The translations under genes and the position numbers were made by a program. This document shows, piece after piece, positions 36,412 through 64,000 of a DNA stretch of 64,000 nucleotides. The stretch comes from Trypanosoma brucei (taxonomy: Eukaryota): positions 96,001 to 160,000 of the forward strand of contig CH464492.1 of the NCBI GenBank assembly GCA_000002445.1. The letters are read 5' to 3'. The notes under the pieces are model-generated. The model saw only the letters and a program-made list of their open reading frames with translations. It had not been told where the DNA came from and searched no databases. How positions within the stretch are numbered: position 1 is the first letter of the stretch; each line of letters starts with the position of its first letter.

Positions 36412-36839
36412 AAGACGTCTTTACAGAGTTTTATGCTCTTTCCGCACGATACTTTTTTGGCCTTCTTCCTGCTTGTTTGTTTTTGCAAAGCCTTTCTGCT
36501 AGGTGTGTTTTGAGTTTGTTTCCCAGCCAAAAAGGGGGGTACTTATATGGTTGATAAGAGCTGACATAAATGAGAAAATGCCATAATAACACACATTTTT
36601 CATGCCCTAAGCCCACTAGTTTAAAGCATAATTCTACATCATTCATATTTTATATAAATATCAAAATTTTATCTTCTCAAAAATTTCCTCCATTTGCACA
36701 TTTTAGTCAAAAGTAATAAAGCAAAACAAAAATATCAAATTTAAAAAAATGTTAGAAAATTATCTAAAAATACTTAAAATAGAAACCTCACAAAAGCAGT
36801 ATCCATAAAAAAAAACAATTTCTTATTTACGAGAAAAAT

Positions 36840-37562
36840 GTAATCCTTGAAAAAATCAGCCTCCCGTGTGCAGTTTCCAATGCAATCTTTTTAAGGCTTA
36901 TCTTTGCAGTCAGAGCTTTCTTTTCCATTATTTTCTTCACCTTACTTCTTTGTTTTTGTTTCAGGGTCTGGAAAGCATTTTTCACCATCGGGTTTGCCAT
37001 TATCGAAATTTCATCCCGCTTTTGGGAAGGCATACTGCTCAGTGAGTTCCTTGCAGTTATCTTATGATGGCGGTCGGAGTGCGGCTCCTGGATGTTTGTT
37101 GTTTTCCATTTTCGCAGAAAGCTGCTGTAGGTTTACGCTAAGTTGCGTTTCTAGGTGTCCCAACACCACCTAAAGGTCTGTCACGCTCAACAAACCGCCT
37201 AGCTTTTTGCTGCTACCGATTTTTTTATTTAGGTCTGGCACGTCTTCTTCTTCTATTTGGCTTATCAATTCCTTGAGTTTTATGCCTTCATCTGCCAGTT
37301 GCTCTTTGGCTATCATGGTTGTTTCGGTTGTAAGCTTGGCAGTGTCTAGATCCAGTTTTTCTAGGATTATTATTATTTTTATCTCATTCGCCAGCTCTCC
37401 TTGTACATCGCTGCTACCTAGTATATCCTTTTCTATTTCTCTGCTGCTGCTGCTGATTGTGGTTAGTTTAGAGAGTGTTTTATTAGATCGGAGTGTATTG
37501 CCACCTTCTGCGGTGCTTCGGTTGCAGTTAGTGAGAACATTATCCCTCCTCAGATGCTCTGC
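36840..37562 (-). pseudogene. VSG-L, a VSG 3'-half fragment (C-terminal domain region) with several in-frame stops
   Basis: My minus-strand translation reads ...ELANEIKIIIILEKLDLDTAKL...LADEGIKLKELISQIEEEDVPD...NCKELTEQYAFPKAG-stop-NFDNGKPDGEKCFPDPETKTKK-stop-GEENNGKESSDCKDKP. Cys-rich CxFDxG and CFPDPE motifs match the VSG-E C-terminal domain. No N-terminal domain was found upstream. Confidence 0.6.
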
Positions 37563-39119: not shown

Positions 39120-39265
39120 TCCTATCATTATTATTATTATCATCATTATTATTATTATTACTGTCATTATTATTATCATTATTACTATCATTACTGCTCT
39201 TATTATAATATTCGTATATGCACACTCACAACAGTCCCCTATTATTTATTATTATTATATCACAA
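39120..39265 (-). repeat. 70-bp-repeat unit preceded by a long (ATT/ATC/ACT)n tract, forming the upstream boundary of the VSG-L/VSG-M region
   Basis: CATTACTGCTCTTATTATAATATTCGTATATGCACACTCACAACAGTCCCCTATTATTTATTATT, preceded by about 80 bp of triplet repeats. Confidence 0.85.
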
Positions 39266-39416
39266 AAAACATGCATAAAAGACTTAATAAACTAAATAAA
39301 AGAAATTAGAATCCACTCATTTTCAAATCTTATCGGCTTACTACTTTGAACCCATACACTCTCATACAATTTTTTTTCGAAAACTTTTCATATTTTCACT
39401 AATTTACTTACTTTCA

Positions 39417-42639: not shown

Positions 42640-42844
42640 AGCTCATAAAGGAAGAAACAATTAGTTACAAATTTTTTATTTACAATAATAGTGAAATCCT
42701 TACAGGAGTGACTTTCCCATTTTCACCTATTTTTACAATCCCTCTCCAGTTTACCCTTATATTTACCTGTTGTTGTTTCGGTTAACGTAGTTTGAGGTAG
42801 TGCTAAAAAGACTGCATTCTCGTTGATTTGCCATGCATTATATT
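42640..42844 (-). pseudogene. VSG 3'-end remnant (distal C-terminal domain, GPI signal and 3'UTR) truncated by ingi#2
   Basis: The minus strand reads ...CKDFTIIVNKKFVTNCFFLYELCF followed by a 3'UTR-like ...CAAAGCTCATAAAGGAAGAAACAATTAG. The sequence is the same type as the 3' flanks of the other VSGs at 28080-28170 and 50030-50110. The VSG body is absent on both sides of the ingi pair. Confidence 0.5.
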
Positions 42845-45800: not shown

Positions 45801-48089
45801 GCCTGTGTGCGCTGATGACTCTAACAATGTCAAAAGGGAGGCTTCCGAAAAGTGGATTGAACGGCATTTTGCACGGAGGGGGAAGGAGCCACCGCGACGA
45901 GAGCACTACGAATTGTGGACTGATGGATCTTTGTCCCTCGGTGAGAAGTTCGGAGCAGCTGCCCTGCTCTATAGAAACAACACGCTGATTTGCGCACCCA
46001 AGACCGGAGCAGGGGAACTCTCATGAAGTTACAGAGCGGAATGCGTAGCATTAGAGATAGGACTGCAACGGCTGCTGAAATGGGTTCCGGCATACAGAAG
46101 CACACCGAGCAGGTTGTCCATCTTCTCTGACTCGCTGTCAATGTTAACAGCATTGCAGACAGGCCCCCTAGCCGTAACGGACCCAATTCTGAGACGACTA
46201 TGGAGGCTTCTGCTTCAAGTTCAGAGAAGGAAGATACGTATCCGACTGCAATTTTTGTTTGGCCATTGTGGCGTGAAACGGAATGAGGTTTGCGATGAAA
46301 TGGCCAAAAAGGCCGCTGATTTACCACAGTTGCGAGACACATGGGTCCCCGACATCATTGCTTATGCGAAGCGAGTGCTTAGGTCGGAAGAAGTCCATGA
46401 GAACACTCATAGGTTTGGTATCACGTGCAACCACTTTCCAACAAAACATAAAGAAGAACTGACGAGGGAAGAAGAAACGGCACTGGCACGCTTTCGGGTT
46501 GGGTCTTCAAGACACTATGGATGGATGTTGCGAAAGATCAACCCGAGTGTGCCTCCACAGTGCAGATGGTGCAACCCGCAACATGCAGCGATAAGGCCAA
46601 CAATACAAACAGTCCCAACTGTTGCGACACGCACTCTTCAGAGAACCTCCGAATTGACCAAATGTACGGAATGTGATGCCACATACCAATGCCGCTCGAG
46701 TGCTGTAACGCATATGGTAAACAAACATGGTTTTGTGCGAGCTGATGCCCTCCGGAGGATCAAATACGGCGATGCAACACCTGCAGTGGACATCCCCCCG
46801 GAGCCCCCTCCAGTGGTGGCGATCGTTCCTCTACCATGGAGCACACAAGTCCCGATGAGACCACAGGTTCTTCATTGTACCATCTGTGCCTCCATATTCG
46901 CAGTGCCAGGCCGACTATTACACCACCTTAGAACAATACATGGCATAGGCAGCGGTAGTTGCCGCGTGAAAAGGCGACAAGAGAACGAGGACTCAGTGCA
47001 AGGAGATGGTAGCGTCCCAGCAGCGCCAGCCTCTCAGGATACACGGAAGCTGCCGTTTCAATGTGACCTGTGCGAGGCGAGCTTCGGTACACCCTCTTCC
47101 CTGTCACTACACAAGAAATTCAAACATAAGAGCATAGTGACGGAGGACGGTACTGTGGTGTTGCTGCAAATCCCTCGTAAGCGTGCCCTTTAGGGAAACG
47201 TTGACGTGCCGGGGAAGGGCGAGGTGCAGTGTGGTGTGTGCCAAAAAGTGCTCAGTTGCAGGGACTCCCTCATCTGACACTGTAAGGCTTTCCACAAAGG
47301 TGAGGAAGTGGAGCTTAAATGCAGCAAAAGCACAAAATTGTGTGCCACTGATTCCCCGCATACAAACGCATCCATGTTTGTGTGCCAGACATGCGGAAGG
47401 CAGTGTGCTAGCAAAACTGGCCTCACCCTACATCAAAAGAAGATGCACGGTATGAAGGTAGAGCGCGCTGTTACAAGCCAACGCGGCGACTGCGAAGAAA
47501 CGTCGCTGCACTTGATGAGCTGTCCCGGTTTGAAGGAGTTACGTGTCAGGTTTGCGGTAGAAGGTGTGTGTGCAGGATATATGTTTTTCTAAAAGGCTGG
47601 CGCAGTTTCTCATTGCGGTTGAACGGAGCCTGCCGCAGGTGAAGTCCTTACCTAATGTAACAGTCATACAACCCACTCTCCCTTCTACAACTTCCCCCCT
47701 TATTGCCGAGAGTGGAGCTAGCAGGAAAAGCACCAACCGCAGGAATACTCCAGACACCCTCAGAGACAGAGGGGGTATGCAGTCAACAAGCAACAAAAAC
47801 AGAAAGAGGGAGAGAGAATAATAAACGAATAACAAAAAACAAAACAAAAGGATTGCTAATTGACATCTTCGGGAGAGTCCGGGGTGGGAAGCTTCTCGCC
47901 CCATCTGCTGTATTCCGTTCAACTGCGGAGCTACAACAAAAAATTATAGAGTGTGTTAGGCTGAATAAAAAAGGGAGACTCTGCCACAGTCGTGAGACCG
48001 ATAGCATCTCAGGGCTCTACGGTGATGGCTGATGGCCGCGCCAGTGGGGGGAAACTTTCACGAAGGCACGAAGAAAATTCAAAAAAAAA
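42845..48089 (+). mobile_element. ingi: ingi#2, a full-length ingi retroposon (5245 bp) with an A9 tail, multiply frameshifted and with no target-site duplication
   Basis: The 5' end is CCCTGCTAATGCCGGCCACCTCAACGTGGTGCCAGGG and the element is about 98% identical to ingi#1 along its length. The ORF is split into at least six pieces (42823-43719, 44042-44764, 44882-45226, 45094-46026, 46114-47193, 47308-47592). The 2A motif is at 43084-43107. Confidence 0.95.
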
Positions 48090-48670
48090 TGCCGACGTGA
48101 CAGTCAGCGCAGTTCCACGTGCAAGGTGAATTGTTGCATGCACTTGTTCAATGCGACCAACAACTGTCATACCGGTCTCGACTGGTAGGTCCTCCCTCAC
48201 TAGTATTGATACACCACCTCCTTTGCAGTTACGAGCTATTCCGTGATGTTGGTAGCCAGCAACGCTAAAGCAAGCCGCCTCTCCAGGCGTCATCCTTGTC
48301 TCGCTCAACAGACAAAAGGCGATCCGCTCATCAACAAGGGTTTTGTGGAGTGCTAATCTCTTTCCTTGAGATAGCCCGGCGCAGTTCCACTGTATCCCGC
48401 GCAACGACGGGCCGGGATTCTCTTCCACATCACCGGACAGCAGCATCTTAGTGCGTATGATACTGCTGATGGCACGCTGGCACGTGCCCAGGGACCGACA
48501 AATGAAAAACGGTGTCCCAGCAAGACGCTGCTGATCCCTGTGCTGTATGATGCCGTTGCCGGAGCAAAGCAGTGTTCCCCATGAGAGGAACGCTGCTGGG
48601 TCTTGGCTTCCTTAGATGAGACGGGGTACTGGACCCTGGCACCACGTTGAGGCGGCCAGCATTAGCAGGG
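48090..48670 (-). mobile_element. ingi: ingi#3, the inverted 5' 580 bp of an ingi (RIME-left half, 2A motif and start of the AP endonuclease domain) abutting the ingi#2 poly(A)
   Basis: The minus-strand 5' end CCCCTGCTAATGCTGGCCGCCTCAACGTGGTGCCAGGGTCCAG lies at 48670. ORF 48009-48446 begins MLLSGDVEENPGPSLRGIQWNCAGLSQGKRLALHK. The fragment breaks at the equivalent of ingi position about 585, directly against the ingi#2 A-tail. Confidence 0.9.
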
Positions 48671-49697
48671 GGTTTGCCTCAAACATTCCAACATAGAAAG
48701 GTGTTAGGGGTGAATGAAACACGTATGGGCGGTGGTTTAGCTTTTGTGTCTTCTGTTGTAAATGTTCATTAAATTGTGTTCTGCTACCGCCGCCTCGTTT
48801 GTAACCTATTAATCTTCATTTAAAGTTCGTTTTTTATACCTTTTGCTCACTTCACTATAAAAATAAAACAAAAATTTTCTTTTCCTTAATCCCTTTTTCA
48901 CATCTGTTGAGTATAAGGGAAACTGAGGTTCACTGTTAATATAATGCATGGTAATACAATAAAGTTCTTGTTTCGTTTGTTTTCGGTATATTGATTTATA
49001 GTTCTGTTTATTTTTGGCTTTACCACATTGTTCAAGGTTTGTGCCATCATTAAGCTACTTTTGTGCCGCTGCTTCATCGTCTCAATGGTTCTGCATCAGT
49101 AAAAGTCTTACATAAATTGTGAATTCTTACCTTATTAATTTTTATATGTACACCCATATGGAATCTGGGGTGTATTACAATCAACTCATCTTCATCACTA
49201 AGCCATATTGCAGCTCTTCTATGTGATATTTTACGGACTTTTCAATTCTTACTCTTCTTTCGACGTTCATTGTAATCCATTGATAGTTCTTGTTTTAAAA
49301 TTCCCCTCCAAATAAAATTACTATATTTGTGCCTCACATTTTATACATTATTACTATATATGATGATATGAAAACTTTAATATAACCTCACACCTACACA
49401 CTTCTTTCTTCTTCCTGCTCTATTTTCCGCTTTTTTTCAGATAGTAATTAATTTACACCACCATAATCAAAATCAACAGTTACAGACATCACCTCCGTTG
49501 CATTTATCAATTTTTAAATCAAATAGCGTAGATAATTACTTCTTCTTTTCTTAATCTTGGTGCATATATTTTTCCACCGTGTTGTGTTGTATCGTATTGT
49601 GTCATTTCATTTTATATTTTCCCTCTTTTTCGCTTTCTTTTACTGCTTTATGAGATGACGTGCCACTCCATTTGAACGGCACACAATACTGGCTTGT

Positions 49698-49790
49698 CAT
49701 TACTATTATTCCTATTACTGCTTTTATTATAATATTCGTATATACTCACACTCACAACACTCTTCTATCATTATTATTATTATTATAACC
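49698..49790 (-). repeat. 70-bp-repeat unit bounding a cassette slot that now holds only ingi#2 and ingi#3
   Basis: CATTACTATTATTCCTATTACTGCTTTTATTATAATATTCGTATATACTCACACTCACAACACTCTTCTATCATTATTATTATTATT. Confidence 0.85.
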
Positions 49791-50019: not shown

Positions 50020-51534
50020 TCTTCTAACCTCACAAAAAGCAGCAGAAACCATGCTGAGGGCGAATTGTTTGTTGACTAGAAAACTGTAATCTTTGCACTC
50101 TTTTCCATCATATTTTCAACCATCTTTGCAATCTTTCTCTCCTTTACCTGTGCACGGTGACTCTGTTTTCGAATATTTCCCTGTTTCTTGTTTTGCTGCT
50201 GCTTTTGCTGCGGCTTCTTTCGTTAAGGTACACTTTTTCCCTTTCTCATTTGTATCGACAAAATGGCACCCTGCCGTTTCGCCACACTTGGTTTTGTTTT
50301 CCCCTATGTCGTTGCAAATTTGTTCTGGACTCTTACCGTCAGCTTTAGCACCAAGGTTTTTTAGCTGCTTCTTTAGGTTTGTTATTTCCTTATTTAGGCT
50401 CGTAACTCGAGCTTGTTGATAGTGCCTGAGGAGCTTATCCAGCTCATCTAAATCGTTGATGGTGCTCAACTCTTTACCCTCGCTTTCTTTTCCGGTTAAA
50501 TCGATTACTTTTGTGTCCGGGAAGTCCTTGTATTCGGTTTCCATTTTGGAGCCAAAGGCTGATTGTACCGCATTTGCTTCGACCGGCGCATCTGGCCTTT
50601 CGAGCTTGCTGTCGCCTAGTACCTGTCGTCTGTAGGCATTCTTGAAGTCGTCGTCGCCTGCAAGCTGTGTCGGGCCTTTGAAGGCATATCCTTCGCTGAC
50701 GTCCTTTGTTGCGAGATAAGCGTCGTGTCCTGCTTTCATGGTTGCATGCTGTGCCGAAGCTGTTGTTATGGCGTCGGCGTGGTTGTTGTTGAAAGTTGTG
50801 CCAAGCTTGAACAGGCCACCTGCAAAAACGACGTCTCCTCCGAGATTGCCGCCTGTGTTTGTGTTGATGAGATGGCTGCTAGCTTTTGTTTCTGTTAGTG
50901 TGCAGCTTGCGCCGCCCTGTGTCGTTGTTGCATCGTCGGTCCCAGCTAGGTGGCTATTTGTTATGCCGTTTGGGCCGAACTGAGTTGTCGTCGCGAGCGA
51001 TGGTTCTATGGCGCTTGCTTTTGCGGCGCAGCCTTCCTCCGTCATTGGCTTCGGCGACCCTCCGGATCTTTTGCGCACATCGCCTCCGTCGATGAGACAG
51101 GCATGTGTCCCGTCTTCTGCGATTTGATTGGCCATGTTTACGAATTCTTGTATCGCGCCTTCAAACTTGGCGGCGTTTGCTATTGCAGTTGCACCTTTGG
51201 TTAGCGTGCTGCCGGTTGCCTCCTGTAAAGCCAGGTTTGCTTTTCGCATGTAGTATTCAACGAGTGCTAGATCGACTTTACGGTACTTACCGGATCTCTT
51301 CACTTCAATGTATATTTTGGTTTTGTAGGCTTGCGTTAGATAGTTGGCTGTCCCGGTGATCTTGTTTTTCACCATCTGCGCCGCTCTTTTCTGGACCTTC
51401 TGTAAGTCTACTGCTACTGCACATGCCGCTTTCCATGTTGTTTCCTTGATCGGGTTTGTCGACGCGGCTTCTGAATGAGTAACAATTAAAGATACCAGAA
51501 ACACTAGCAGTTGTAGGCCGCTGTTGCAGTGCAT
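50020..51534 (-). pseudogene. VSG-N, an A-type VSG with a premature TGA at a conserved C-terminal-domain Cys codon
   Basis: The 472-aa ORF 50116-51534 starts MHCNSGLQLLVFLVSLIVTHSEAAS and ends ...SPCTGKGEKDCKDG-TGA-KYDGKECKDYSFLVNKQFALSMVSAAF in the same frame. The expected Cys codon of DGCKYDG is TGA. Confidence 0.8.
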
Positions 51535-53149
51535 CGGTTTTTATCCTTGTTTTTCCTAGCTAAATGTTGATTTTGACTGTATAGGTGTGAAAATTGAAGT
51601 TTTGTTAAGGAGGTCTGCCGCGTTCTGCTGGTCTGCTGCATCCGCTGCTTTGGGTACTTTATTTTCCCTCTTTTTATCACATGCCAAATGAAAACGCGCT
51701 CCTACTCAGTGGACTGATTTCTGTTCAGTATTTCTTGAATGAAATACCGTAAGTCTTTAGGTCTCTGAAGTTTACTCGCGCTGTTAAAGCCAAACCTATG
51801 CGCATTATCTTTCAGCCTCACCTTAAAACAAGTGAAGGGCAAACCCCTGTAGAAAATATATTTCAAGGGCCGTGCGCATATGTGGTAAATGATTAAGTGA
51901 TATTGCAGCTTGGTTAGTCGTTGATTTTAAAGAAAAAATAAATGTTAGAAAGATGTACACAGCTTGCTGCATTTGCCATGGTGAGTAAAAGTATTTCAAT
52001 TAAGCCAAAGAACATCCACTGTTAATTCCAATCTTTACCATTATATATCTATATCTATGTCTAAAGAATATATTATTTGTAGTCGGTGTTCTTCTGTAAT
52101 GCGTTCAAATGCATGCTTTGTGGAAGCATATGCAATGACTATAAAACGCAGACACTTTTTTCTTACGCATAATCTTGAGAATTTTTACTGCTATCCTGTT
52201 TTATTGTTTGCCTTTTCAACTATTTCTTGGCAGTGTCAGTTTTATTTGAACTCATTTTTTTGAAATTTGTGATTTTACTTCATTAATGCCATTTCATTGT
52301 GTATTTTGATGCAAGTTAGCTTTTCCGTGGAAGTTGTTAACGTCTGGAATGTATACCAATAGGGGACTGTTAAAGGGTTGCTATTTATTCTTTTTACTCA
52401 TAAAAGTGCCATATAGAGTTATACATAAGATATTTTAAAACAGATTTAGCGATTTTATTATTCTCCTTCCCACGATAAAGTATTGTTAGTCGTGGTTTCA
52501 AAACCCTCCTTCACAAAATATTATATTGTTTCACACAAATTTTGGCCTTTATTATTATACCTGATTTGAGGAATAATTTGACATTATCTTACACAAACCT
52601 TGACGGCTGCTTCTGCTTCTCTTCACTGCCACTTCGGAGTTAGACGTTATAATCTACCACCAGACTAATAACTACAATAGGTGCTACTGTTGTTTTTTCG
52701 TCTATCATTTTCTTATAGAGCTTCGCAGCAGTATATTCTCCTGCATATTTTCTTTCTGTGTCGTGCTGTGGCATATTCTGTTATTTCATTCTGTGTTTTA
52801 GTTAATTTTTTTTCATTCTTTATCGCTGCTTCTTCATGTAACGTAGACATCCCATTTTGCCTTTACATTGAACTCTGTCTCTACCTTATATTCTCGTCCA
52901 CAATCTTCTCATATATGAAGAAACACCTCTTCGCGTTTTCGCCTGAGCATCCGCATATTCTATCTACCCCCTTCCTATCTCTTTCTGCTTTTACTTTAAT
53001 AATATTTCTCTTCTACTCCATTTTCATCTCGCTTACTATTCCACCCACTTACTCACTCAGTTACTTGCACAACACCTTTATCACTATTTTAAAGGCTTCT
53101 ATCCTTCCTTCCTTTTTATTCTCCGGCACGACACTACCAGCAGTGGTAG

Positions 53150-53215
53150 TATATGTTTATTCGCAGCACTTTTCTATTATTATAATTACTATCTTTACTA
53201 TTGTTATAGCCCTAA
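53150..53215 (-). repeat. Degenerate 70-bp-repeat remnant upstream of VSG-N
   Basis: An ATT-rich tract with a repeat-like core, followed by the conserved ...AGTAAAATTTCAAAAATAAAC motif. Confidence 0.45.
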
Positions 53216-53350
53216 ATTGCTGTTAGTAAAATTTCAAAAATAAACATAATAAAATAAATTAGAATATCATTTGTTTTTCATACCATATTACTATGCAACT
53301 TTACACCGATAACTCACTATGATACAACAACTTACCAAAATTTTAAAATT

Positions 53351-56300
53351 TCCCTGATTTCTGCCAGCCACACCATCGTGGTGCCAGGGTCTATTACTGC
53401 CTCCAGGAGGAAGGCAAGTGCACGCATTATACCTGATCTGACAGGATTTGGGAGTGAAAGAGGCTTTTGGAAACCACAGGAGCAAGAAGCAGAATTGGCA
53501 TTCTGGGATGAAGAAATATATTAGACTGCTCTTCTGCGCGTGCGAGCGCGCCTCGATTAGGATACATAGGCTTCTAATACTAAGCGGAGATGTTGAGCTC
53601 AACCCTGGTCCTCAGATAAGTGGAGCCCAGTAGAATGATGGAGGTCTCTCCCAGACGAAGCGGATCGCCTTAGAGAAGAAGCTTCACGATGATATGGTAG
53701 TCTTCTGTCTATCGCAGGAGACTCACTTGGCAGCAGAATAATATTATGCATTAAAAATCAGTGGATAACAACACATGGGAATGGAAGGCTTTCCACATGG
53801 TGTTGGGGTATCAATTTTTGTCAAAGATAGCACGGGAGTCTTCCAAGGTCCAAAGGAGGAGGAACTGCCGAAAAGAGTCTCGGCAACACTGATGTGTTCA
53901 ACTAATCTAATGTTAACTATAAAGTCAGTTTACTTCCAACAGAAGGAAGATTTCACTACCTCCACGCTTGATAGCCTTAAGAGCTAAACTAGAACACTGG
54001 TGATATGATCCTATACAACGCACATCACGAGTCATGGGACCCGCTTCACTCAAATGATACAGCGGGAGAATGCATTGTAGACTGGTGTCCACAAAATGAT
54101 ATCAAGATTGCAAATGATGGCACCCCAACAAGAATTCCTCACACGGAAGCCATGTCGTTTCCAGACGTTAGGATGTACAGATAATGCGAGGTCACAAGAT
54201 GTGAAGCAAGTCTCAGTTCAGATAGTGGGCACTACTGGATAATATTTGAGGTGTGCATTGGCATTGGTGTAGAAACGACTGCCATTTCAAAGCTACGAAG
54301 GGTACTGTATGCTTGGAATAAAGCAAATTGTCGGGAGTTTAGAAAAGTGTGTGACGTAAGAATGTTTAATAATTAAGGAAGTCTGGAAAGAATGTGGATG
54401 CCATGGCTGAGGCAGTGACTAAAGGCATTCGCACAGCAGCAAAGAAGAAAACAATACCGAATGGTAATGTAGTATCGCCACCGCTGTGAAGGCGAGAACT
54501 AACCAAACTGGACACAAAAATAAGATAGTGTACAAACGAGAAGCACAGATAGGTTCCCCTATATACAAGAGAAGGAAAGCTCTCGATGAAACATCCCTAC
54601 AACGGTGGAAAGAAAATGTGTCAAAGGTGTCGGTGATCAATACAAAAAATTGGAGTGTAGTCAAGTCGGTGTATGCACTAAGATGACTGACATCTCCGGT
54701 TATGGTAGTAAATAGTCACCCTCTAACACGCAGACAGAAAGCTAATAAGCTAGAGCAGATGTATAGAGAGAGCTGTTGACGAAACTATCAGATGCTCCTG
54801 CCATGAGTATACTTTAACCAGGAAGCAGGGAATTTGCACCAATAACGATGGCAGAACTTGAGACAGAACTGAAGGATCTCTCTTCAAGAGCTGCCTCCGG
54901 TAAGGACGATATACATTGCGAACAGTTAAAGCAATTAGGAAGCTACAGCAAGAAATATGTCCTCAAGCTCATTAACTCTAACCTACAGAAACACTGGGTG
55001 CCGGAGAAGTAGAAGCAGTGCGTTATTGTATCACTACTCAAACCCAACAAACCGGCCAAGTGTATGTTATCTTTCCAAACCATCACACTCACTTGCACCA
55101 TCTGTAAACTCATGGAGATGTTTGTAGAGAGAGAAATACGAAACACAGTAGTGTAAGCTGCAACTACAGCAGACTGTTTTCAACCAGGAAAAATCTATAT
55201 TGTCAGACGCCATGAGCACTCACAGAATCCGTGACACATAGGGTACCAAGAGAGAAAACTGCAGAGGTATTCACATATTATGCGAGGGCATTTAACTCTG
55301 TGGATCGCAGGTGCATAATAGGTGCACTAAAAAGATATGAGGTAGACATAAAACTTATTGTGTCGGTTGCAAATTTCCTGGAGGGATGGACTGCAGTAGT
55401 ACGAATAAACAACACCCTCTCAAATAAAATACAACTCACGTGTGGTGTTCCGCAAGGTTGCGTGTTGGGGACGTTGCTATTCATTATCGCAATAGACTCT
55501 CTCAGTGCGAAATTAAACTCCATACGAGCACTTAAACACTGCTTCTTCACGAACGAACTCACGATAGTATGCTCTAACACTGACCTAGAAGCTATTCGGC
55601 AGACGCTACAAACAGGATTAGATTGAATAGCGAGCTGTTCAGGAGAGGACTATATGAATGTGTCTGCGGAAATAACGGAATACACATTATTTGGGGTGAG
55701 ATACAGAGACTCGTTACGCCTATTTCTTGGACAGTACATGTTAAACGAGACGAGAAATCCCAGACTCCTTAGAGTGACAATGCAGCTACACAAGGGAGTA
55801 AGCAGACATGCACACACCCCACAAACAGCACTAAATATGAGATTAATGAAACTACAGGCTGTTGCATCACCCGAAAAGTGTTAAAAGTAAAGAAATTTTC
55901 CGAGTATTTTACTTAGCCTTAATCCTGGAAAAGGTACGCTATGCGATCGCAGCATGGTGGTTCAATGCTTATCCATCAGAGGAGGAGCTTGAACGAGTAC
56001 AAGAGCAGACGGTACATGTTATCGCTGGTATTCCAAAGTACGCGACTCAGTGAAATGTCATGAAGGATGCCCGTCTTCACAAGATAGATGATTTTGGTCA
56101 CATACGAGGAATAGAATACCATTTAATAAGGAGGGCGAACGGTAAATAATCAGCAGATACAGTGGAAAAAAGTTCCCACCCATTCGTCCGATACACACGC
56201 GACTGCAGAGTGTGTCACACTTTTGTGGGGAAGTGCACAGACCGCAGAAAAAACACACACGGTAAGTATATTGCAACTGGCGAGGAGACCGTACTTCAAC

Positions 56301-59000
56301 ACCACAACACCAGGTGGTCTCCATTCTGGCGCTTTCGACAACGAGAAAAAGACATAAAATGCAAAGGGTACGTAGATTCAAAGACTACGATTATCAAGTG
56401 CAGACGGATGAGTCGGTGATACTGAACGAATCCTCTGGCGCCGACCACGATAATATACCCTAGACAATGTAATGCGGTAAAAGTGAAGAAAGGAGCAGCA
56501 AGTCAGCATGCAACTACAGAGCATGGTGTGTAGCCGTGGAGGCAGGACTTATGAAACTTAAGTCAGTAACAAATCTCAAGGAAAGCATAAAAACGAAAGT
56601 GGAAATATTTACAGGCTCGGTATCCTTATTAATGGCACTTAAAAAGGTCCTGAAGTAGTGAGAGATTCGATACTACAAGGCATATGGAACCTGATCCTGC
56701 ACTTCATGAAACCAAAGGTATCCATGTCGTTTCAGTCTGTGTTTTTGCATTGCAGTATCACGACAAATGACAAAGTGAGCTAACTCGCAAACAAAGGAAA
56801 CCACATGCAGCAAACCTACCTTGCATGGATCACCGAAAATGTCACAGGTATAGCGCACCAAATACGGTATCAGTCACAACGCGACTTCAATTTGCGGGAG
56901 GTCGTGGCCCAAACACACATTGCAGTGCTTTACTAAACCATCTAAAACCGACTCCAAAATACAAGGAGATAGATAAGGAAAATGAGTCAATGTCAGCTCA
57001 ATTTAGAAAGGGACCTCAAAACATTTTGGATGATTACATAGGGTGATCACACGAAAGGTTGACAAACTGGTGTGTAGATGGTGTGCAAAACACATGAAAC
57101 ATTTTCAAGAATTACCCTTCTAAAAATTAAAAAAACTGTAAAGATGGAAGAAACTGAGGAAGGCAAGATGGTAATAGCTGCAACACATAATGACCCGATG
57201 ATATTCTTAGTTTGCAACATCATGTGCGCGAGATGACAAACGGGAGTTGTTCACATAATGAAAACAGATCAGTGGGTTTGTCCAAATGCACTAGTTGCAT
57301 TAAAGATGGCGTCAAGAGAATCGCATCTCTATAATGGAGTCTATCGATGTCACGTATGTGGTAAAGTATTCAAACAAAAGGGACTACTACCGCAACACAT
57401 GCCACAGCACGCTCCAACAACTTCAGTAGTATGGACATAGCGACAAAAGAGGAAGCGAGAATACGAAGAACAGTCGTTGCCAACTGTCGGCAAGTGTTAA
57501 TGCTGCCCCAAGCAGTATGCCACGTATGACTTGTTGACTAGGCATATACATCTAAAACATCCTGAAAAGCAAAGCGATGTGACTCAACAAAAGGAAACGC
57601 AGGATGTAAGCATCGAAGATGAACAATGGCAAGCACAACAAGCATACAAATGCCTCCGGTGCAAACAGTTGTACGGAAGCAAAACATGGCTCACCAGGCA
57701 TAAGTGCAATCCGGAGCAGAGTAAGGGGGAACCAAGCACACCACTACAGGAAGCACTGCCGGAGAGAGAAGAATGTAAGGTATACGGTAAAGAGTACCAG
57801 CACAGCTTGATGTTACCCCGTATGAATGCGAAACACCCCTGGAATGATATCTCACTTAGTCCATATCCGATAAAGATAAGCAAATCGACGAAGGAGATAT
57901 CAAAGTCACAATCAAAGGAAGACACTAGTTGCGACAACAAAAATAAGGATGACGATGAAACACCACTTTGTGTTTGCGGCAAATGCAAGAGGGGTTTCAA
58001 AAGCAAGACATAACTAACACGCTTCAAGTGTGTGAGCATAGAAAGAAATGGCACGAAAAGTGAGAATGTGAACAACCACCATAGAGCAGCTAAATAACTA
58101 GATACAACTACCAAAATGGGTCGAAGCCTGGCTCAATAAATAGAGCACTTCTCAACTCAGACTTGTTACACACAATTAAAATTTGAACTTCACGACAAGA
58201 AAGAGAAGAACAGAGACTGAGCATGACACGCTAGCAGATGAGATGGATATGAGAGATCAGAGAGAGGAGCCAAAACACAAATGGCATAAAGCTTAAGGGC
58301 ATACAGATAACCCTTGTAGAGAGTTTGCATGTGAAAGGTGTTAGAACACCTACATGCTCTGCTGTACGCTAGTATGGAATAACAGAACGCACTACAAAAA
58401 TTCAATCACTGTAAAGAGGAAGCACGAAGAAGGATCCCTTGAAATCACGCCACTGGCCCCCCTTGCGCAACAATGCCCACTCTGCTCGAAGGTATGTGCA
58501 CACAACAATATCTAACAATGCACCTCCAAGAAGCACATGGGCAGGCACATAGCTATGATAGGCGAAATAAGCTAAAAGTCAAATGAGAAATTCAAAGAAA
58601 AATCGGTTCACCTGTTGGAGTGTCTGGCTTTCCGTAAACTCAGGTCTGAGCATATAGACAGTCCGAAAGGGGAAAAAATATACTTTAGTGTTAAGGTGGT
58701 GAACTTCTTAAGGGCACTCTTCATTCCGACGGAAATTCAGGCTCCCACTATAGAAGCGAAGAAATCGATAACCCAAAAGAGAATAAAGAAAGAAAGGCCA
58801 CCATCGTGCTAAGTATCCACTGACTATATGCGACACATTCGGATGACAGCCAGTAAGATTTTCCTCAACTGATGGAAAAAAGTATTGAAAGAAGAGCTTT
58901 GTCAACAAGGCACCATTAGCCAGCCCCCACAGGAGAAAGCGAGTAGGGGATCGTGAGGATGGAAAACATATCAACGGAGAAAGTAGACACCAGGGAAGTC
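53351..59000 (+). mobile_element. DIRE: Degenerate ingi-related retroposon (DIRE-like), heavily decayed, with an uncertain 3' boundary
   Basis: The 5' end CCCTGATTTCTGCCAGCCACACCATCGTGGTGCCAGGGTC is a diverged ingi 5' end. LILSGDVELNPGP (2A-like, 53589-53612) is followed by GLSQTKRIALEKKLHDDMVVFCLSQETHL, which parallels the ingi APE start. RT motifs appear at 55231-55626 (YARAFNSVD, GVPQGCVLGTLLF versus ingi YEKAFDTVD, GVPQGTVLGPIMF). C2H2 fingers lie at 57258-58013 and an ingi-like CxxFRKLR motif at 58615-58690. Stops and frameshifts occur throughout. Confidence 0.75.
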
Positions 59001-59175
59001 TATATAGATTGATTGAGGTGCGTGCAGGTAAACCTTATATTAAAGAATCTCCGCACCTTAAATCTTGTTCTCTTTGTCCTTTATTGTTTCGTTTCGCAAT
59101 ATTTTTTTGTTTTCTACATCAGTTACTCACATTGCACACATGCTACTTTTTTGTGCGCTTATATTTTGGCCGTCC

Positions 59176-59260
59176 ATTATTATTATTATTATTATTATTA
59201 CTGCTCTCATTATAATATTCGTATATACACACGCAAAACGGACTTTTATAATTATTATTG
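59176..59260 (-). repeat. 70-bp-repeat unit bounding the slot occupied by the DIRE
   Basis: CCATTATTATTATTATTATTATTACTGCTCTCATTATAATATTCGTATATACACACGCAAAACGG. Confidence 0.85.
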
Positions 59261-59519
59261 TAAACATAACTAATATTCATAAAATAATGGAAATGAACAA
59301 AAATATACGTGGAATATCACTCAGTTTATACATTATAGTAACCTACACTTTTTATCAATTTTCCACGATCATACATGTCTTACTAAAATTTCAGATTTGC
59401 ATATTTCGCAATGGTTTTACAACAGTGTTAAAATATCATAACTATTTAAATGTTTTAGCACATCCTATCAGTATAAAAAAGTTTTATACATTTTGTAAAG
59501 TGGAGCAATTGTTAAAATG

Positions 59520-61064
59520 CTAAAGTGCTACAAAACTCACAAAAGCAGAAGCCATCAAAGCGAATTGTTTGTTTAATAGAATAGAGGAATCTTTGCAAGT
59601 TTCGCCCTCCCACTTACAATCCGGAGATTTGCAGTCTTTTTGTTCTTTCCCTGTGCACTTGGAGTCGGTTTTTTTATCTTTCCCTCCTGTTTCTTGGTTA
59701 GCTTTTTCTAGTGCTTGTTTGGCTTCCTTGTTCAATGTGCACTTTTTGTTTGTCTCGCCATTCTCTTTAAATATGCACCCCTGGCCCTTTAACTTATCAC
59801 ATTCTCCTTTGTTGTCTCATGCTTTATTGCATTCTTTCTCCTGATCTTCCGCTGATTTTGTTTCTTTATTTTGCTTTGCATCGGTCAGCTCCTGTTTTAA
59901 TTTCTCTTTATCTTTGATGAGTGCTATGTTTAATGTTGCCAGAATGGCCTCCAACTGCCCAGTGGACATTGCATTGAGTGCTGTTTCTTTATCTGTTCCC
60001 GCGATTTTGTCTTTGAGTTTGTAGTTTGCTGCGTCACTTAGTAGCTTGTCTACCGTGTCTTTGCTGGTTGCACCGAAAAGGTTTGTTATTGCTGCTTTAC
60101 TGTTTGCTATTGTGCCGTCGTCTACATTTTTTATAATTCTTGCTATTGTCTTTGCTGCTCTTTCCGTTGATTCTAACTTGTCCGAAGTATTCGTGTAGTC
60201 TTCGTCACTAATTTTAGGTAGTGCGCCCACTGTCGTTATCACAGCCTGCCATGCTGTAGCTTCGGTTCGGTCTGTTAGTGTCGGTCTGTTCAGGTTTAGT
60301 AGGTTGACTTTGCCGTCGTTACTGCCTGTGTCTATCTCGATGTAGCCGGCCGCATAGTGTAGTTTTGCCGCATCGACGTCTCCAGCCTTGCCCAGGCCGT
60401 CGGCGTTGCTCTTTGCGAACAGTCGGCAATTTTTGTTTGCTGATTGTAGGCTGTTGCTGTTGTCTAGTCCCGCTTGTGTGCCGGCGATGCCGCCTGCTGT
60501 TATAGTCTTTTTTGCCCTCCCGTTGCCCGCTGTCTGTGGCACCCCGGTTTTGCATTCTGTACCGTCTATCGTCGTCCCTGCGAAATTGTGGGCGTTGGTG
60601 TCATCCCCGTGTAAGCAGCCATGGTCGGTGCCTTCCTTTGTCTGTGCCGCCACCGTCATAAACTCGTCGATCGCTCCTTTAGCGTAGCTCGTCGCCGCAA
60701 CTGCTGCTAGAAATTTGTCACCGTCTATGCTGTGCAGTTTTGCGAGCGCCTGTTCTTCCATTGATGCTACATAAGCCGCTAAAACGATGCTCCTTTCAGC
60801 CACTGCTGCTGTTGGCGCAACCCTGCTGTAGACTTTGAGCTGCAGAGCTTCTTTTCTAAAGTCAAGCGCCAGTTTTAGGATGCGCTTCTGCTCTGTTGCC
60901 GCTTCGGAGGTTACCTCTCCCAGCTCTTTTGCTAAGTTACACAATGGAACCCAAGTTTCTTTTTTCAGTCCCATGTTGTCCGCGCCTTCCGTGGAGGTTG
61001 TTGTGAGCAAAACGGCAAGTATTACTGATGCCGCAGGCTGTTTACTGCAGCTCATGGGTTTCAT
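59520..61064 (-). pseudogene. VSG-O, an A-type VSG with a frameshift between the N-terminal domain and an intact C-terminal domain plus GPI signal
   Basis: ORF 59817-61064 starts MKPMSCSKQPAASVILAVLLTTTSTEGAD...WVPLCNLAKELG. ORF 59520-59735, in another frame, reads ...[45 protein letters not shown]. Confidence 0.8.
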
Positions 61065-62391
61065 TTTTTGGTTCCGACTCCACTGCTTTTGAAAGCCGTA
61101 GCCGTGGCTGTTTTGCCTTCAGATGACAACTTAGCTTGTTATTTAGTTTTTAACCGTTTTCCTTTCAGATACCTTTCAACGAGGTTAATATTGAACAAAC
61201 GCTTAAACAACCAACTTTGTCTACTATACACAAAACAAAAAAAACAGATAAGGTTAAAGAAAGACAATTACCTATATTTTTCGACAGCATTCCAATGTGT
61301 TTCAAAACTAGATACGTAAGTCCGAATAACCACAAAAAGGACTCATTTGGACATATATTGTGCTTTCTTGAACTCGTACTCTTAAAGGTATATTTCCCAA
61401 ATTTAGGGTTTTTGAACCTGTTTGTCTCCACTTCCAATAAAGTGTTTTTTCTCCACAGATAAAACCGCAAAACGGTATTTTCAATTAATTTCGTATTTGT
61501 AGAGATACATAACAGACACGTTAGAGCATGTAAATTATCACTCTATTTTATTGTGTTTTTCATATGCTAAACTTGCGTAAACTTCAATTTCACTATAGAA
61601 GGCCATGGCCACAATGAAAAAAATTTTTAAGGTGAATTTTGTTTTTCGAAAAGTTTACCCTTTTACATCTTAATCTATATCGCTATATATTTCTATTTAT
61701 TACTTCTATCATTTAAGACCGTTGTGTGCTACTGATGCGCTTCCACTACTGTTGGTGTGAGGCATCTGCAATGGCGATATAGCGTTGATACTTCTGTCAT
61801 ACGCGTGGTTTCAGGCAGTCAGCGCTGTTATACGGCTGTATTGTTAGTCACTTTAGCATCTTGATCGATAATAGCTGTATTCACAAAATTATTTTGTTTA
61901 AAATTTGCCGGTATGCACCATCTAAACTGCTATGGTGTGTGTTTTCACATGAATCATCTGTTCATTGAATCGGCGTAACGGTTTTAGTGTTTTGTCTTTA
62001 AAGCAATGTTGTTCTAGTGGAGTATAACGAACCATTCTGTAAATAAAAGACTCTTCTGTTTTCCCATGGGCGTTTTTTAAACTCGTGTTGGTCTTTTTTG
62101 ACATGCTCCTTAGTCAGCTGCGAATACTGCATTTATTGTCGATTTTTTATATGAAAATACAACTACATTCGCCTTGTATGATGAACTCAGTTCCTTAATG
62201 ACTTCCATCTACTTCTCGTGTATACTGACATCCGTATCCTTTATTGTGTTTGAAATAGCGAATATTCCATCTCTCTCTCATTAAATTTTTTACAAACTCA
62301 CCTACTCACTGCGATTTCACCCTTTCCTGTGTTTTAACTGCTTTGAACACGGTATTTTTACTCGGTTATCGTTGGTACTGTTCTTACCACT

Positions 62392-62471: not shown

Positions 62472-62575
62472 GTTATTATTATTGTTATTATTATTGTTAT
62501 TATTATTGCTATTACTGCTCTCATTATTATATTCGTATATACACACTCACAACACACACCTACCATTATTATTGT
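62392..62575 (-). repeat. 70-bp repeats (2 cores) with a greatly expanded (ATT)12-(ATTATTATTGTT)3 tract, upstream of VSG-O
   Basis: Cores ATAATATTAGTATACATACACACTCACAACACTCTCGT and CTCTCATTATTATATTCGTATATACACACTCACAACACACACC are separated by about 100 bp of triplet repeat. Confidence 0.9.
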
Positions 62576-63281
62576 CAGCTTTAATATTCAGGTTTTCATC
62601 CATCACTATTTTATTTTTGATATTTTCTTTCCAACATCTTTTTCAAGTAACAAGGTCGATTTTAAATATAATAAACATCAATGGTTGGAGAATCTTTGAT
62701 TTGCTTTGACCGTACAGATGCGCAAAGTTCAAAAGGTTTCAGAAAGGTGTTGGTGAAGTTTAACCATATTTTTTTATTACTGAATTATTTCTCTAAAATG
62801 CTTTTTTTCTTTTGTATTGCACTTACATCAAAAACCAATTGGGCAGCGCTTTGAAGGCAGTGAAGTGGCGTATGGGAATATTTGCGTATTGGTGGTTCTT
62901 TAATGTATGAGGGTTACGTTCCAAAAGGTGATGGAAAAAAGTAACATATGCATGTGTGTTCAATAATAATAATTAAATGCCAAGTTCTCTTACTTTCTGT
63001 ATCAAACAGTGAGTGTGTTTTCTAATGTCATTTTTTCAAATGCGTATCGAGGTTTAGGAGGCACAATGTTGCTTAAAACTCAACTCTCACGAGAATGACA
63101 CAAATTAAGGGAAGCTTCTATCGCAGCCACCATTTCCATGTGTGCAACAGTAAGCGAGTCATCGTAACAATTTTTTTTGCGCGTGTGAAGTGTGAAATCC
63201 TCATGAGAACTCAAGATTTACCACAATAATACTCATTATGCAAGGTGCTTTGAGTGGAGAAGGTGGCGCAGACTCAAATAT

Positions 63282-63381
63282 NNNNNNNNNNNNNNNNNNN
63301 NNNNNNNNNNNNNNNNNNNNNNNNNNNNNNNNNNNNNNNNNNNNNNNNNNNNNNNNNNNNNNNNNNNNNNNNNNNNNNNNN
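63282..63381. other. Assembly gap (100 N)
   Basis: A run of exactly 100 N characters, the conventional unknown-size gap placeholder. Confidence 0.99.
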
Positions 63382-64000
63382 TAGCGCCAAAACTATTTTT
63401 TTTAATGGCCACAAAATGCTGCAGGAAAGCAGTGTGGAAATAATTTCATTGGATAGAAAAGTGTGTGAGGAAAGTTTATTAAAATTATTTGAGATTTATA
63501 ACTGTTCTATCTGAGTAACCATGTGCGTGCTTTAGTACAGGAATACCTTTGTAATAAAGCTTTTGTATCCTTTACAAAGAAACACTAAGAAGCCGAATTA
63601 GTTATAAAAGTAAAGCAAATATTTTAATCAAGAACAATACTCAACATTTTGCTTCAGGACAAAAAAACACTTATTCTGGGAGAAAAGCGTCTGAGGGAAC
63701 GTGAAGCAAGAGGTGATCACGTTTTCAGTTTATATGGCTCCGTATGCAATGCAAAGTGAAGTCACGTTATAATGGACAACGAAACTCAACTGCTCGGGAT
63801 GGAGTTTGTTGATGGAACGCGTGGTGATGATGTAATGTGGAAGGATGAAGAACTTAATGTTGTCCCTGAAATTGAGGAAACTGTGGAGAAGAAACCAGAG
63901 TCCAGGGAAGCAGTTGAAGCAATGGTTCTAACATCTCAAATGGGGTGATAATAACCCAAGTTTACCGACGGGTGTGGCGAAAACATATTCATCTGTAGAG

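What the first reader, a model, noticed from the sequence alone, without database searches (positions are those of the whole stretch)
53150..59260. A whole VSG cassette slot is filled by a degenerate ingi-related element with a divergent 2A motif
The DIRE-like element starts about 135 bp after one 70-bp repeat (53150-53215) and ends just before the next (59176-59260). It contains no VSG sequence, so the element has replaced the VSG and its upstream spacer. Its protein remnants (APE start, RT YARAFNSVD and GVPQGCVLG boxes, C2H2 fingers) are collinear with ingi but highly diverged and riddled with stops, so the insertion is ancient. With the two ingi events above, 3 of about 17 slots in 64 kb are retroposon-modified. 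All three events lie at the 70-bp-repeat-proximal side of a slot.
Basis: partly seen in the sequence, partly recalled or inferred. Interest (0 to 1): 0.6.

Follow-up and report, generated by a model that had tools for sequence, protein, structure and literature searches.

The report
Dead retroposon filling a VSG slot
A long-dead, full-length jumping gene of a known kind (a Trypanosoma brucei DIRE) sits between two 70-bp repeats where a surface-antigen (VSG) gene would normally be; this is a real but ordinary piece of genome decay.

Summary
Window 53352 to about 59050 (+ strand, antisense to the VSG array) is a full-length, degenerate ingi-clade non-LTR retroposon. It has a 5' 79-bp signature, a 2A peptide, and APE, RT, RNase H and C2H2 remnants collinear with ingi. 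It carries 24 in-frame stops and at least 10 frame changes, and the RT catalytic box is mutated (FADD to FTNE). No VSG similarity lies inside it.

It is bounded by a solid 70-bp repeat (59176-59260) and a degenerate partial one (53131-53215). The partial repeat is validated by the conserved block that follows every 70-bp repeat (53222-53353, E 2e-11).

- The element is closer to T. vivax and T. congolense ingi (47% aa) than to T. brucei ingi (32%). Much of its divergence from ingi therefore reflects lineage, not age.
- The 2A (ILSGDVELNPGP) is canonical, not divergent.
- "Replaced the VSG" is an architectural fact, but the cause is unproven. There is no target-site duplication and no poly(A). 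The deletion of at least 2.5 kb could have happened before, during or after insertion.

DIREs are already described in T. brucei. The claimed bias towards 70-bp repeats rests on three cases and has a simple AT-richness explanation. Interest is low.

The parts
53131..53215 (-). Degenerate, partial 70-bp repeat (left boundary). It heads the cassette of VSG 50116-51534.
   Evidence: blastn of 53149-53208 against 7380-7439 gives 75% over 60 bp, E 5e-5. It aligns in register with nine other repeats but lacks the TAA-run/TTACTGCTC half.
53222..53351 (-). Conserved block that lies between every 70-bp repeat and the 3' end of the preceding VSG. Here it is truncated by the element about 45 bp short of where the VSG 3'-UTR 16-mer sits in other cassettes.
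   Evidence: A held-out nhmmer profile built from 8 other cassettes hits 53222-53353 with E 2.1e-11, covering hmm positions 11-139 of ~146. See also the alignment and the 16-mer map.
53340..53351 (+). The 12 bp directly upstream of the element (ATTTTAAAATTT), preceded by ACTTaccaaA. This is a candidate target site with a partial match to the ingi6 signature TTTTxxxxxA^A.
   Evidence: Sequence read; signature taken from PMC3820030. The same signature is perfect at the Tvingi and Tcoingi copies in L002 and L001. No second copy is found at the 3' end above chance.
53352..59050 (+). Full-length degenerate ingi-clade retroposon (TbDIRE of the Tvingi/Tcoingi-like lineage), about 5.7 kb. The 3' end is uncertain within 59030-59065.
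53352..53430 (+). 5' 76-79-bp signature (Pr77-type hallmark) of trypanosomatid retroposons.
   Evidence: 79% identical to Tcoingi, 71% to Tvingi and 66% to Tbingi. This is the only nucleotide-level match to the window's ingi copies: 36 bp at 83%.
53571..53612 (+). 2A ribosome-skipping motif LLILSGDVELNPGP. It is canonical D[V/I]ExNPGP.
   Evidence: Tbingi has LLSGDVEENPGP; Tvingi and Tcoingi have (L/V)ISGDVERNPGP or VSGDVERNPGP.
53613..54355 (+). AP-endonuclease domain remnant, spread over 2 frames and containing stops.
   Evidence: tblastn HSPs at 53361-53978 and 54017-54355. Pfam Exo_endo_phos_2 scores E 0.006, below its cut-off.
54830..55869 (+). Reverse-transcriptase remnant. The catalytic box is FFTNE (55543-55557) in place of FFADD.
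   Evidence: Pfam RVT_1 E 3.8e-8; HSPs; box located.
56392..56837 (+). RNase H remnant.
   Evidence: tblastn to ingi aa 1038-1186, E 1e-16.
57258..58515 (+). C-terminal C2H2 zinc-finger region, collinear with Tvingi ORF3.
   Evidence: ORFs; frames. tblastn with Tvingi ORF3 maps aa 1-189 to 57399-57959 (E 3e-20) and aa 211-274 to 58318-58506 (E 3e-8).
59066..59175 (-). T-rich remnant next to the right 70-bp repeat. It is probably the repeat-proximal end of the cassette spacer.
   Evidence: The composition switches here. The last ~50 bp align in register to the spacer-proximal profile at 2.3 bits, a score reached by 3 of 300 shuffles. No hit appears in the whole-window scan.
59176..59260 (-). 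70-bp repeat (right boundary): (ATT)8 followed by the core.
   Evidence: 86-94% identical to copies at 7253-7589, 21352-21479, 39169-39280 and 62490-62590.

Best explanation
What it is. Window 53352 to about 59050 is an extinct, full-length non-LTR retrotransposon of the ingi clade, a T. brucei DIRE. It descends from the lineage that is still potentially active in T. vivax and T. congolense (Tvingi/Tcoingi, called 'ingi6' by Bringaud et al.), not from Tbingi.

How it worked when alive. It encoded one polyprotein: a short leader, then a 2A ribosome-skipping site, then AP-endonuclease, reverse transcriptase, RNase H and C2H2 fingers. It inserted by target-primed reverse transcription at AT-rich TTTTxxxxxA^A sites. 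It is now inert. It carries 24 in-frame stops and at least 10 frameshifts, its start codon is lost, and its RT box reads FTNE instead of ADD.

Where it sits. It lies antisense in a silent VSG array. Its intact 5' end is inside the conserved 3'-flank block of a VSG cassette, 137 bp from the next 70-bp repeat. Its 3' end is about 110-145 bp from the upstream 70-bp repeat. The cassette interior that should lie between those two points is missing: most of the spacer, the VSG and the 16-mer-bearing 3' UTR, at least 2.5 kb in all.

Favoured mechanism (inference, not shown). The deletion arose at the insertion event itself. The first nick would have been near the right repeat, with the full-length cDNA joined to a second break about 3 kb away. 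That amounts to a large target-site deletion.

Present function: none.

On the confidence figure. Identity as a TbDIRE of this lineage is about 0.95 and absence of a VSG from the slot about 0.9. The stated confidence of 0.45 applies to the whole statement, including the favoured deletion-at-insertion mechanism.
For: Identity:
- Collinear homology to ingi, E 5e-113.
- Best database relatives are T. vivax and T. congolense ingi proteins, E 5e-269 and 8e-260 at 46-47% identity.
- Pairwise aa identity is 47% to those against 32% to Tbingi.
- The 5' UTR beyond the signature is 60-63% identical to Tcoingi/Tvingi against 31% to Tbingi.
- Pfam RVT_1.

Decay:
- 1.57 stops per 100 codons against 6.2 expected in random sequence and 5.6-7.3 in the off-frames.
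- FFTNE box.

Full length:
- The 5' end starts with the canonical CCCTG.
- Tvingi in L002 has a 293-bp 3' UTR. By protein collinearity, that puts the expected 3' end at about 59030-59050, which is where A-rich turns to T-rich.

Architecture:
- Left flank matches the 3'-flank block, E 2e-11.
- The 16-mer normally lies 80-215 bp from each repeat and is absent here.
- No VSG similarity inside the element.
- The right flank abuts a solid 70-bp repeat.

Deletion at insertion:
- Both element ends are intact.
- The flanks are non-contiguous cassette parts.
- There is no TSD.
- Rough prior reasoning (inference): landing in a pre-existing ~300-bp empty slot, or a later deletion ending exactly at the element's terminus, each needs a coincidence.
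Against: - No empty-site allele or paralogous slot could be examined, so the timing of the deletion is not shown.
- A TSD decayed by about 12% per copy would be expected to match at about 9/12. The best matches are 8/12, which 80% of shuffles also reach. A simple insertion with a decayed TSD is therefore not excluded.
- No poly(A) tract remains at the 3' junction, although TPRT should leave one.
- The identity of the right flank as spacer rests on a weak match (2.3 bits, p about 0.01).
- Assignment to the ingi6 subclade rests on pairwise identities, not on a phylogeny with all six reference subclades. The key paper (PMC2756862) was not available.
- Large target-site deletions are documented for human L1 (my own knowledge), not for ingi-clade elements.
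Confidence: 0.45

Rival explanations
1. Simple TPRT insertion into a slot that had already lost its VSG. Before insertion, two 70-bp repeats lay about 250-300 bp apart. The TSD and poly(A) have since decayed beyond recognition.
For: - Both element ends are intact.
- The 5' flank partly fits the ingi6 target signature: A^A present, 2 of 4 Ts.
- Several 8/12 candidate TSDs lie at 59037-59066, which is compatible with about 12% decay on each copy.
- VSG-poor slots without any retroposon exist in the same window. For example, 36672-39123 holds only a C-terminal-domain fragment, so deletions occur here independently of retroposons.
Against: - 8/12 matches are at chance level (80% of shuffles).
- No other ~300-bp VSG-less inter-repeat segment is seen in the 64 kb.
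- The target would be only about 0.5-1% of the array.
Confidence: 0.3
2. Ordinary insertion into the VSG 3' flank (or into the spacer), followed later by an independent deletion or ectopic recombination. That later event removed the neighbouring VSG together with the poly(A) and TSD.
For: - No poly(A) and no TSD.
- The nearby ingi#2 slot shows that post-insertion rearrangement happens here. ingi#2 lacks a TSD, abuts an inverted ingi 5' fragment (48089-48672), and only a VSG C-terminal-domain fragment remains (42669-42764).
Against: The deletion breakpoint would have to fall within a few tens of bp of the element's terminus. The length predicted from Tvingi collinearity matches the observed end, and the 5' end is exact.
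Confidence: 0.12
3. The left '70-bp repeat' is spurious. The element simply sits in the long upstream spacer of VSG 50116-51534, so no slot is missing a VSG.
For: - The repeat core matches only weakly: a 10-bp exact hit in the short-query scan and 75% over 60 bp.
- ingi#1 shows exactly this arrangement, a spacer insertion with a TSD.
Against: - The held-out 3'-flank profile hits 53222-53353 at E 2e-11, in register and adjacent to the repeat remnant.
- The segment aligns collinearly with nine other repeat-plus-flank units, and its mean identity (0.59) falls within their range of 0.53-0.67.
Confidence: 0.03
4. The region is not a retroposon but another gene family, or a heavily decayed VSG.
For: None found.
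Against: - Collinear APE, RT, RNase H and zinc-finger homology, E 5e-113 to ingi and 5e-269 to Tvingi.
- No VSG hit better than E 0.05.
Confidence: 0.01

Closest known systems
TbDIRE (degenerate ingi/L1Tc-related elements of T. brucei), in particular the eight ingi6-related copies ('TbDIRE2') described by Bringaud et al. (PMC3820030)
   Same: - About 5 kb or more in length, with the 5' 76-79-bp signature.
- Degenerate APE, RT, RNase H and zinc-finger coding remnants.
- Related to Tvingi/Tcoingi rather than Tbingi.
- Upstream sequence compatible with TTTTxxxxxA^A.
   Different: - Nothing in kind.
- This copy shows no poly(A) and no recognisable TSD.
- It occupies the place of a VSG between two 70-bp repeats.
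- Whether it is one of the eight catalogued copies could not be checked.
Tvingi (T. vivax) and Tcoingi (T. congolense), potentially active autonomous ingi-clade retroposons
   Same: - Same domain order.
- 46-47% aa identity.
- 2A of the same type (SGDVE[R/L]NPGP followed by QI.GAQWN).
- 5' UTR alignable for about 150 nt.
- Similar total length (5413 bp for the L002 copy).
   Different: - The living elements have intact ORFs, an A18 tail and a perfect 12-bp TSD (AAGAATGCAATA in L002).
- The window element has none of these.
- Its 3' UTR shows no nucleotide similarity to theirs.
Tbingi (the two copies in this window, 1651-6913 and 42846-48088)
   Same: Same clade, same architecture, same 5' signature and a 2A site. 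Both lie in the same VSG array in the same orientation.
   Different: - Only 32% aa identity.
- No nucleotide similarity beyond 36 bp of the signature.
- Tbingi#1 has just 2 in-frame stops and an exact TSD, so it is much younger.
Large target-site deletions at LINE-1 insertions in human cells (from my own knowledge of the L1 literature; not checked here)
   Same: A full-length or 5'-intact element is joined to flanks that were kilobases apart before insertion, with no TSD.
   Different: Not documented for ingi-clade elements. It is only inferred here.

Membership tests
[quoted passage not shown] | Conserved 76-79-bp signature at the 5' end | tested here: met
   53352-53430 is 79%, 71% and 66% identical to Tcoingi, Tvingi and Tbingi respectively.
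[quoted passage not shown] | About 5 kb long, with coding remnants collinear with ingi/L1Tc (APE, RT, RNase H, zinc fingers) | tested here: met
   About 5.7 kb, with collinear HSPs. Pfam RVT_1 is above its cut-off.
[quoted passage not shown] | Degenerate: ORF broken by many stops and frameshifts, so unable to transpose | tested here: met
   24 stops in 1527 codons, at least 10 frame changes, and FADD changed to FTNE.
[quoted passage not shown] | 3' poly(dA) stretch | tested here: not met
   No A-run lies at 59030-59065. This could be decay or loss. It does not affect membership by homology.
[quoted passage not shown] | 12-bp target-site duplication (often vestigial in extinct families) | tested here: inconclusive
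   The best match is 8/12, a level reached by 80% of shuffles.
ingi6 subclade (Tvingi/Tcoingi lineage) | RT/polyprotein closer to Tvingi/Tcoingi than to other subclades | tested here: met
   47% against 32% aa identity, and the top database hits. This is by pairwise identity only; no tree with ingi1-6 references was built.
ingi6 subclade (Tvingi/Tcoingi lineage) | Upstream signature TTTTxxxxxA^A followed by 12 bp | tested here: inconclusive
   The site reads ACTTaccaaA^ATTTTAAAATTT. A^A is present and 2 of 4 Ts match, which is weakly informative in AT-rich DNA. The signature is perfect in L001 and L002.
Active Tbingi (ingi4) | High nucleotide identity to ingi and a (near-)intact 1657-aa ORF | tested here: not met
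   blastn finds only 36 bp of similarity, and aa identity is 32%.
2A / 2A-like ribosome-skipping peptides | C-terminal motif D[V/I]ExNPGP in frame with the downstream protein | tested here: met
   DVELNPGP at 53589-53612 is in frame with the APE remnant. The same octapeptide occurs in viral 2As.
2A / 2A-like ribosome-skipping peptides | Demonstrated co-translational separation | not testable with these tools
   This needs an in vitro translation reporter. It is moot here because the ORF is dead.
Canonical array VSG cassette | 70-bp repeat upstream | tested here: met
   59176-59260.
Canonical array VSG cassette | VSG coding sequence (or pseudogene) and a 3' UTR with the 16-mer | tested here: not met
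   There is no VSG similarity and no 16-mer between 53215 and 59176 in the proper context.

The most novel reading that the evidence does not exclude
Retroposition itself deleted a VSG from the silent archive. An ingi-clade element integrated near a 70-bp repeat, either through a large target-site deletion or through capture at a break in this fragile AT-rich DNA. More generally, the AT-rich flanks of 70-bp repeats would be preferred ingi-clade targets. Retroposons would then be a recurrent, directional cause of cassette loss and array restructuring.

A corollary concerns timing. The Tvingi/Tcoingi-like lineage would still have been active in the T. brucei lineage after the 70-bp-repeat cassette architecture arose. 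[quoted passage not shown]
Probability: 0.2. Interest if true: 0.45.

Novelty: already known. Interest (0 to 1): 0.18.

Why it matters
The practical value is small. The case documents that one slot of this VSG array carries no antigen gene at all, and that dead retroposons of a lineage extinct in T. brucei persist inside the array.

Two modest points follow:
1. The element interrupts a conserved cassette-flank module. Its arrival therefore postdates the origin of the 70-bp-repeat cassette architecture, which gives a relative date for when the Tvingi/Tcoingi-like lineage was still mobile in the T. brucei lineage.
2. Together with the ingi#2 slot, it gives two cases in 64 kb where a retroposon coincides with loss of VSG sequence. 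A genome-wide test of retroposon-linked archive erosion would be cheap to run on existing assemblies.

Tried and rejected
- Exact look-ups of three window ORFs in the contig collection found nothing. These were the two flanking VSGs and the 160-aa zinc-finger ORF, so no orthologous or paralogous T. brucei locus could be fetched.
- The VSG homologue search placed the window in T. brucei: 96% identity to Lister 427 VSG-1457 and 70% to EATRO1125 VSGs. Those entries carry no contigs.
- An Rfam scan of 52500-59800 at E up to 1 gave no match, so no curated family covers the 5' signature or ribozyme.
- The Tvingi 3' UTR has no nucleotide similarity to the element's 3' region (282 of 300 shuffles scored as high). 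The exact 3' end therefore could not be fixed by homology.
- The TSD search found nothing above chance.
- The spacer-proximal profile did not hit the right flank in the whole-window scan. A targeted scan gave only a weak in-register match.
- The T. congolense contig L001 ends inside the element, so it gives no 3' end.
- The key classification paper (Bringaud 2009, PMC2756862) is not held. Literature searches for DIREs inside VSG arrays returned nothing specific.
- I considered and rejected two ideas: that the region hides a decayed VSG, and that the left repeat is spurious.
Full report
CONTEXT

The window is a Trypanosoma brucei silent VSG array with the VSGs on the minus strand. VSG-like reading frames recur every 3-4 kb. 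Between them lie 70-bp repeats and the VSG 3'-UTR 16-mer, which sits 80-215 bp to the right of each repeat. The VSG at 50116-51534 is 96% identical to Lister 427 VSG-1457.

Using the repeats and a profile of the conserved block beside them, I count about 15 cassette boundaries. Four retroposon-derived segments exist:
- ingi#1, 1651-6913. It has an exact TSD, ATAAGCAGCATTGCT, and only two in-frame stops.
- ingi#2, 42846-48088. It has no TSD.
- An inverted ingi 5' fragment, 48089-48672, which abuts the ingi#2 poly(A).
- The element of this finding.

tblastn with the window's own ingi polyprotein gives nine collinear HSPs in alternating frames. They run from 53361 to 56837 and cover ingi aa 19-1186 at 28-40% identity, with a combined E of 5e-113. 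The C2H2 region continues the collinearity: Tvingi ORF3 aa 1-189 maps to 57399-57959 and aa 211-274 to 58318-58506. By eye, the last conserved stretch (KGEKIYFSVKVVNFLRALF against Tvingi KDGELFFSAQLASFVKELF) reaches about 58750.

All quoted motifs are present. Pfam RVT_1 is above its cut-off (E 3.8e-8). The endonuclease and zf-C2H2 models give only sub-threshold hits, as expected for a decayed sequence.

Along the homologous reading path there are 24 stops in 1527 codons and at least 10 frame changes. That is 1.57 stops per 100 codons, against 6.2 expected from base composition and 5.6-7.3 in the other frames. If about 4% of point changes create stops (my assumption), this corresponds to roughly 12% substitutions per site since inactivation, with a Poisson range of about 8-19%. 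This falls within the 10-30% divergence-from-consensus range (median 16%) reported for the extinct TbSIDER1 family (PMC3820030), and is far more than ingi#1 shows. The RT catalytic box reads FFTNE instead of FFADD. The position of the Tvingi start codon reads AAG.

No VSG similarity exists inside the element: the best E is 0.05 over 20 aa, and the same queries find all other VSGs.

WHICH FAMILY

The closest proteins in the large database are T. vivax and T. congolense ingi reverse transcriptases, with E 5e-269 and 8e-260 at 46-47% identity. Pairwise aa identities are:
- element to Tvingi or Tcoingi: 47%
- element to Tbingi: 32%
- Tbingi to Tvingi: 40%

At nucleotide level the 5' UTR beyond the 79-bp signature is 60-63% identical to Tcoingi/Tvingi. 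It is 31% identical to Tbingi, no higher than Tbingi scores against Tcoingi or Tvingi over the same columns. The only nucleotide match to the window's ingi copies is 36 bp of the signature.

The element therefore belongs to the Tvingi/Tcoingi-like lineage, called 'ingi6' in Bringaud's nomenclature. That lineage is represented in T. brucei only by extinct TbDIRE copies, of which eight were reported, all preceded by TTTTxxxxxA^A (PMC3820030). The living relatives I fetched show that signature perfectly:
- Tvingi in L002: TTTTattttA^AAGAATGCAATA, with a 12-bp TSD and an A18 tail.
- Tcoingi in L001: TTTTcttaaA^ATTAGGAACAGG.

The window element has ACTTaccaaA^ATTTTAAAATTT, which is compatible but uninformative in AT-rich DNA.

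THE 2A MOTIF

LLILSGDVELNPGP (53571-53612) fits D[V/I]ExNPGP exactly. It differs from Tbingi (DVEENPGP) and Tvingi/Tcoingi (DVERNPGP) only at the free x position. The octapeptide DVELNPGP is listed many times among viral 2As. It is not divergent.

BOUNDARIES AND FLANKS

The 5' end is the canonical CCCTG at 53352.

The 3' end has no poly(A). A-rich composition gives way to T-rich between about 59030 and 59065. Projecting from the last collinear protein positions and the 293-bp Tvingi 3' UTR puts the expected end at about 59030-59050. The element therefore appears full length, about 5.7 kb against 5413 bp for Tvingi.

To the left, 53222-53353 matches a profile built from eight other cassettes, excluding this one. 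The profile models the block that lies between each 70-bp repeat and the preceding VSG's 3' end. The match has E 2e-11 and covers profile positions 11-139 of about 146. Next to it, 53131-53215 is a partial, degenerate 70-bp repeat. The mean identity of this repeat-plus-flank unit to the others (0.59) is within their own range of 0.53-0.67. The element starts about 45 bp short of where the 16-mer lies in other cassettes.

To the right, the repeat at 59176-59260 is solid. The 110-145 bp between it and the element are T-rich. Only their last ~50 bp weakly match, in register, the block that normally lies on that side of a repeat (2.3 bits, reached by 3 of 300 shuffles). The whole-window scan gives no hit.

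WHAT HAPPENED TO THE VSG

In a canonical cassette the two junction points are separated by most of the spacer, the VSG and its proximal 3' UTR, at least 2.5 kb. That DNA is absent. The descriptive claim that the slot is filled by the element and has no VSG is therefore correct.

The cause is not established. No TSD is detectable: the best match is 8/12, which 80% of shuffles reach. Three orders of events fit:
(a) Deletion at the insertion event, as a large target-site deletion or capture at a break.
(b) Simple insertion into an already VSG-less segment of about 300 bp, with the TSD and poly(A) decayed since.
(c) Ordinary insertion followed by a later deletion.

Because both element ends look intact, (c) needs a breakpoint coincidence. 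Explanation (b) needs a hit on a very small and otherwise unseen target. Explanation (a) needs a kind of event known from human L1 but not documented for ingi-clade elements. By rough prior reasoning, which is inference only, I rank them (a) about 0.45, (b) about 0.30 and (c) about 0.12.

Two observations in the window cut both ways. The ingi#2 slot also lacks the VSG N-terminal domain and shows rearrangement. But at least one slot without any retroposon (36672-39123) also holds only a VSG C-terminal-domain fragment, so VSG loss here does not require a retroposon.

THE CLAIM OF A BIAS TOWARDS 70-BP REPEATS

ingi#1 lies 305 bp into the spacer from the repeat array at 7218. The ingi#2 5' end lies inside a VSG coding region, 82 bp from a C-terminal-domain fragment and about 300 bp from the next boundary block. 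The DIRE ends lie within about 140 bp of repeats on both sides. This is not one consistent position, and the sample is three.

A mundane bias exists in any case. The ingi6 target motif TTTTNNNNNAA occurs at 5.6 per kb within 300 bp of 70-bp repeats (GC 0.30). It occurs at 2.7 per kb in the rest of the non-retroposon array (GC 0.42).

COMPARISON WITH WHAT IS KNOWN, AND VERDICT

DIREs are long established as ~5-kb degenerate ingi/L1Tc relatives present in all trypanosomatid genomes and annotated in T. brucei (PMC2323293; PMC3820030; PMC4035085). This element meets the homology-based defining features. It fails only the poly(A) feature, and the TSD test is inconclusive.

It is an instance of a known kind and has no present function. 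The only mildly new angles are two. First, it stands where a VSG should be. [quoted passage not shown]

Interest is low (0.18).

Noticed in passing
window 42669-49700: The ingi#2 slot is rearranged. ingi#2 (42846-48088, + strand) has no TSD. Its poly(A) abuts an inverted 5' ingi fragment (48089-48672, - strand, about the first 580 bp including the signature). Only a VSG C-terminal-domain fragment (42669-42764) remains of the slot's VSG. About 1 kb of spacer follows before the 70-bp repeat at 49686-49786.
   Followed up: partly
window 36672-39123: This slot has no retroposon and holds only a VSG C-terminal-domain fragment (36780-37070). The next ~2 kb have no VSG similarity. VSG truncation or loss therefore also occurs here without transposable elements.
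   Followed up: no
window 11260-12600: About 1.3 kb of low-GC sequence without VSG similarity lies between a 70-bp-repeat flank block and the 16-mer of the next VSG (12613). It includes A-rich tandem repeats at 12399-12484. Its origin is unknown.
   Followed up: no
window 63282-63381: A run of exactly 100 N marks an assembly gap inside the window. Base composition to its right (63001-64000: GC skew +0.18, AT skew +0.09) differs from the rest of the array.
   Followed up: no
window 59520-61118: The VSG to the right of the element is a frameshifted pseudogene. The N-terminal domain ORF (59817-61064) and the C-terminal domain with its GPI-signal ORF (59520-59735) are in different frames.
   Followed up: no
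L001 2138-9938 (T. congolense IL3000 contig CAEQ01002527.1): A Tcoingi copy with an intact 1106-aa ORF lies directly downstream of two VSG_B-type genes. It is preceded by a perfect TTTTcttaaA^A target signature. The same retroposon lineage therefore also sits next to VSG genes in T. congolense.
   Followed up: partly
window 1651-6913: ingi#1 is a clean, young insertion with a 12-15-bp TSD, an A13 tail and only two in-frame stops in 1677 codons. It lies in the spacer 305 bp from the multi-copy 70-bp repeat array at 7218-7605.
   Followed up: yes
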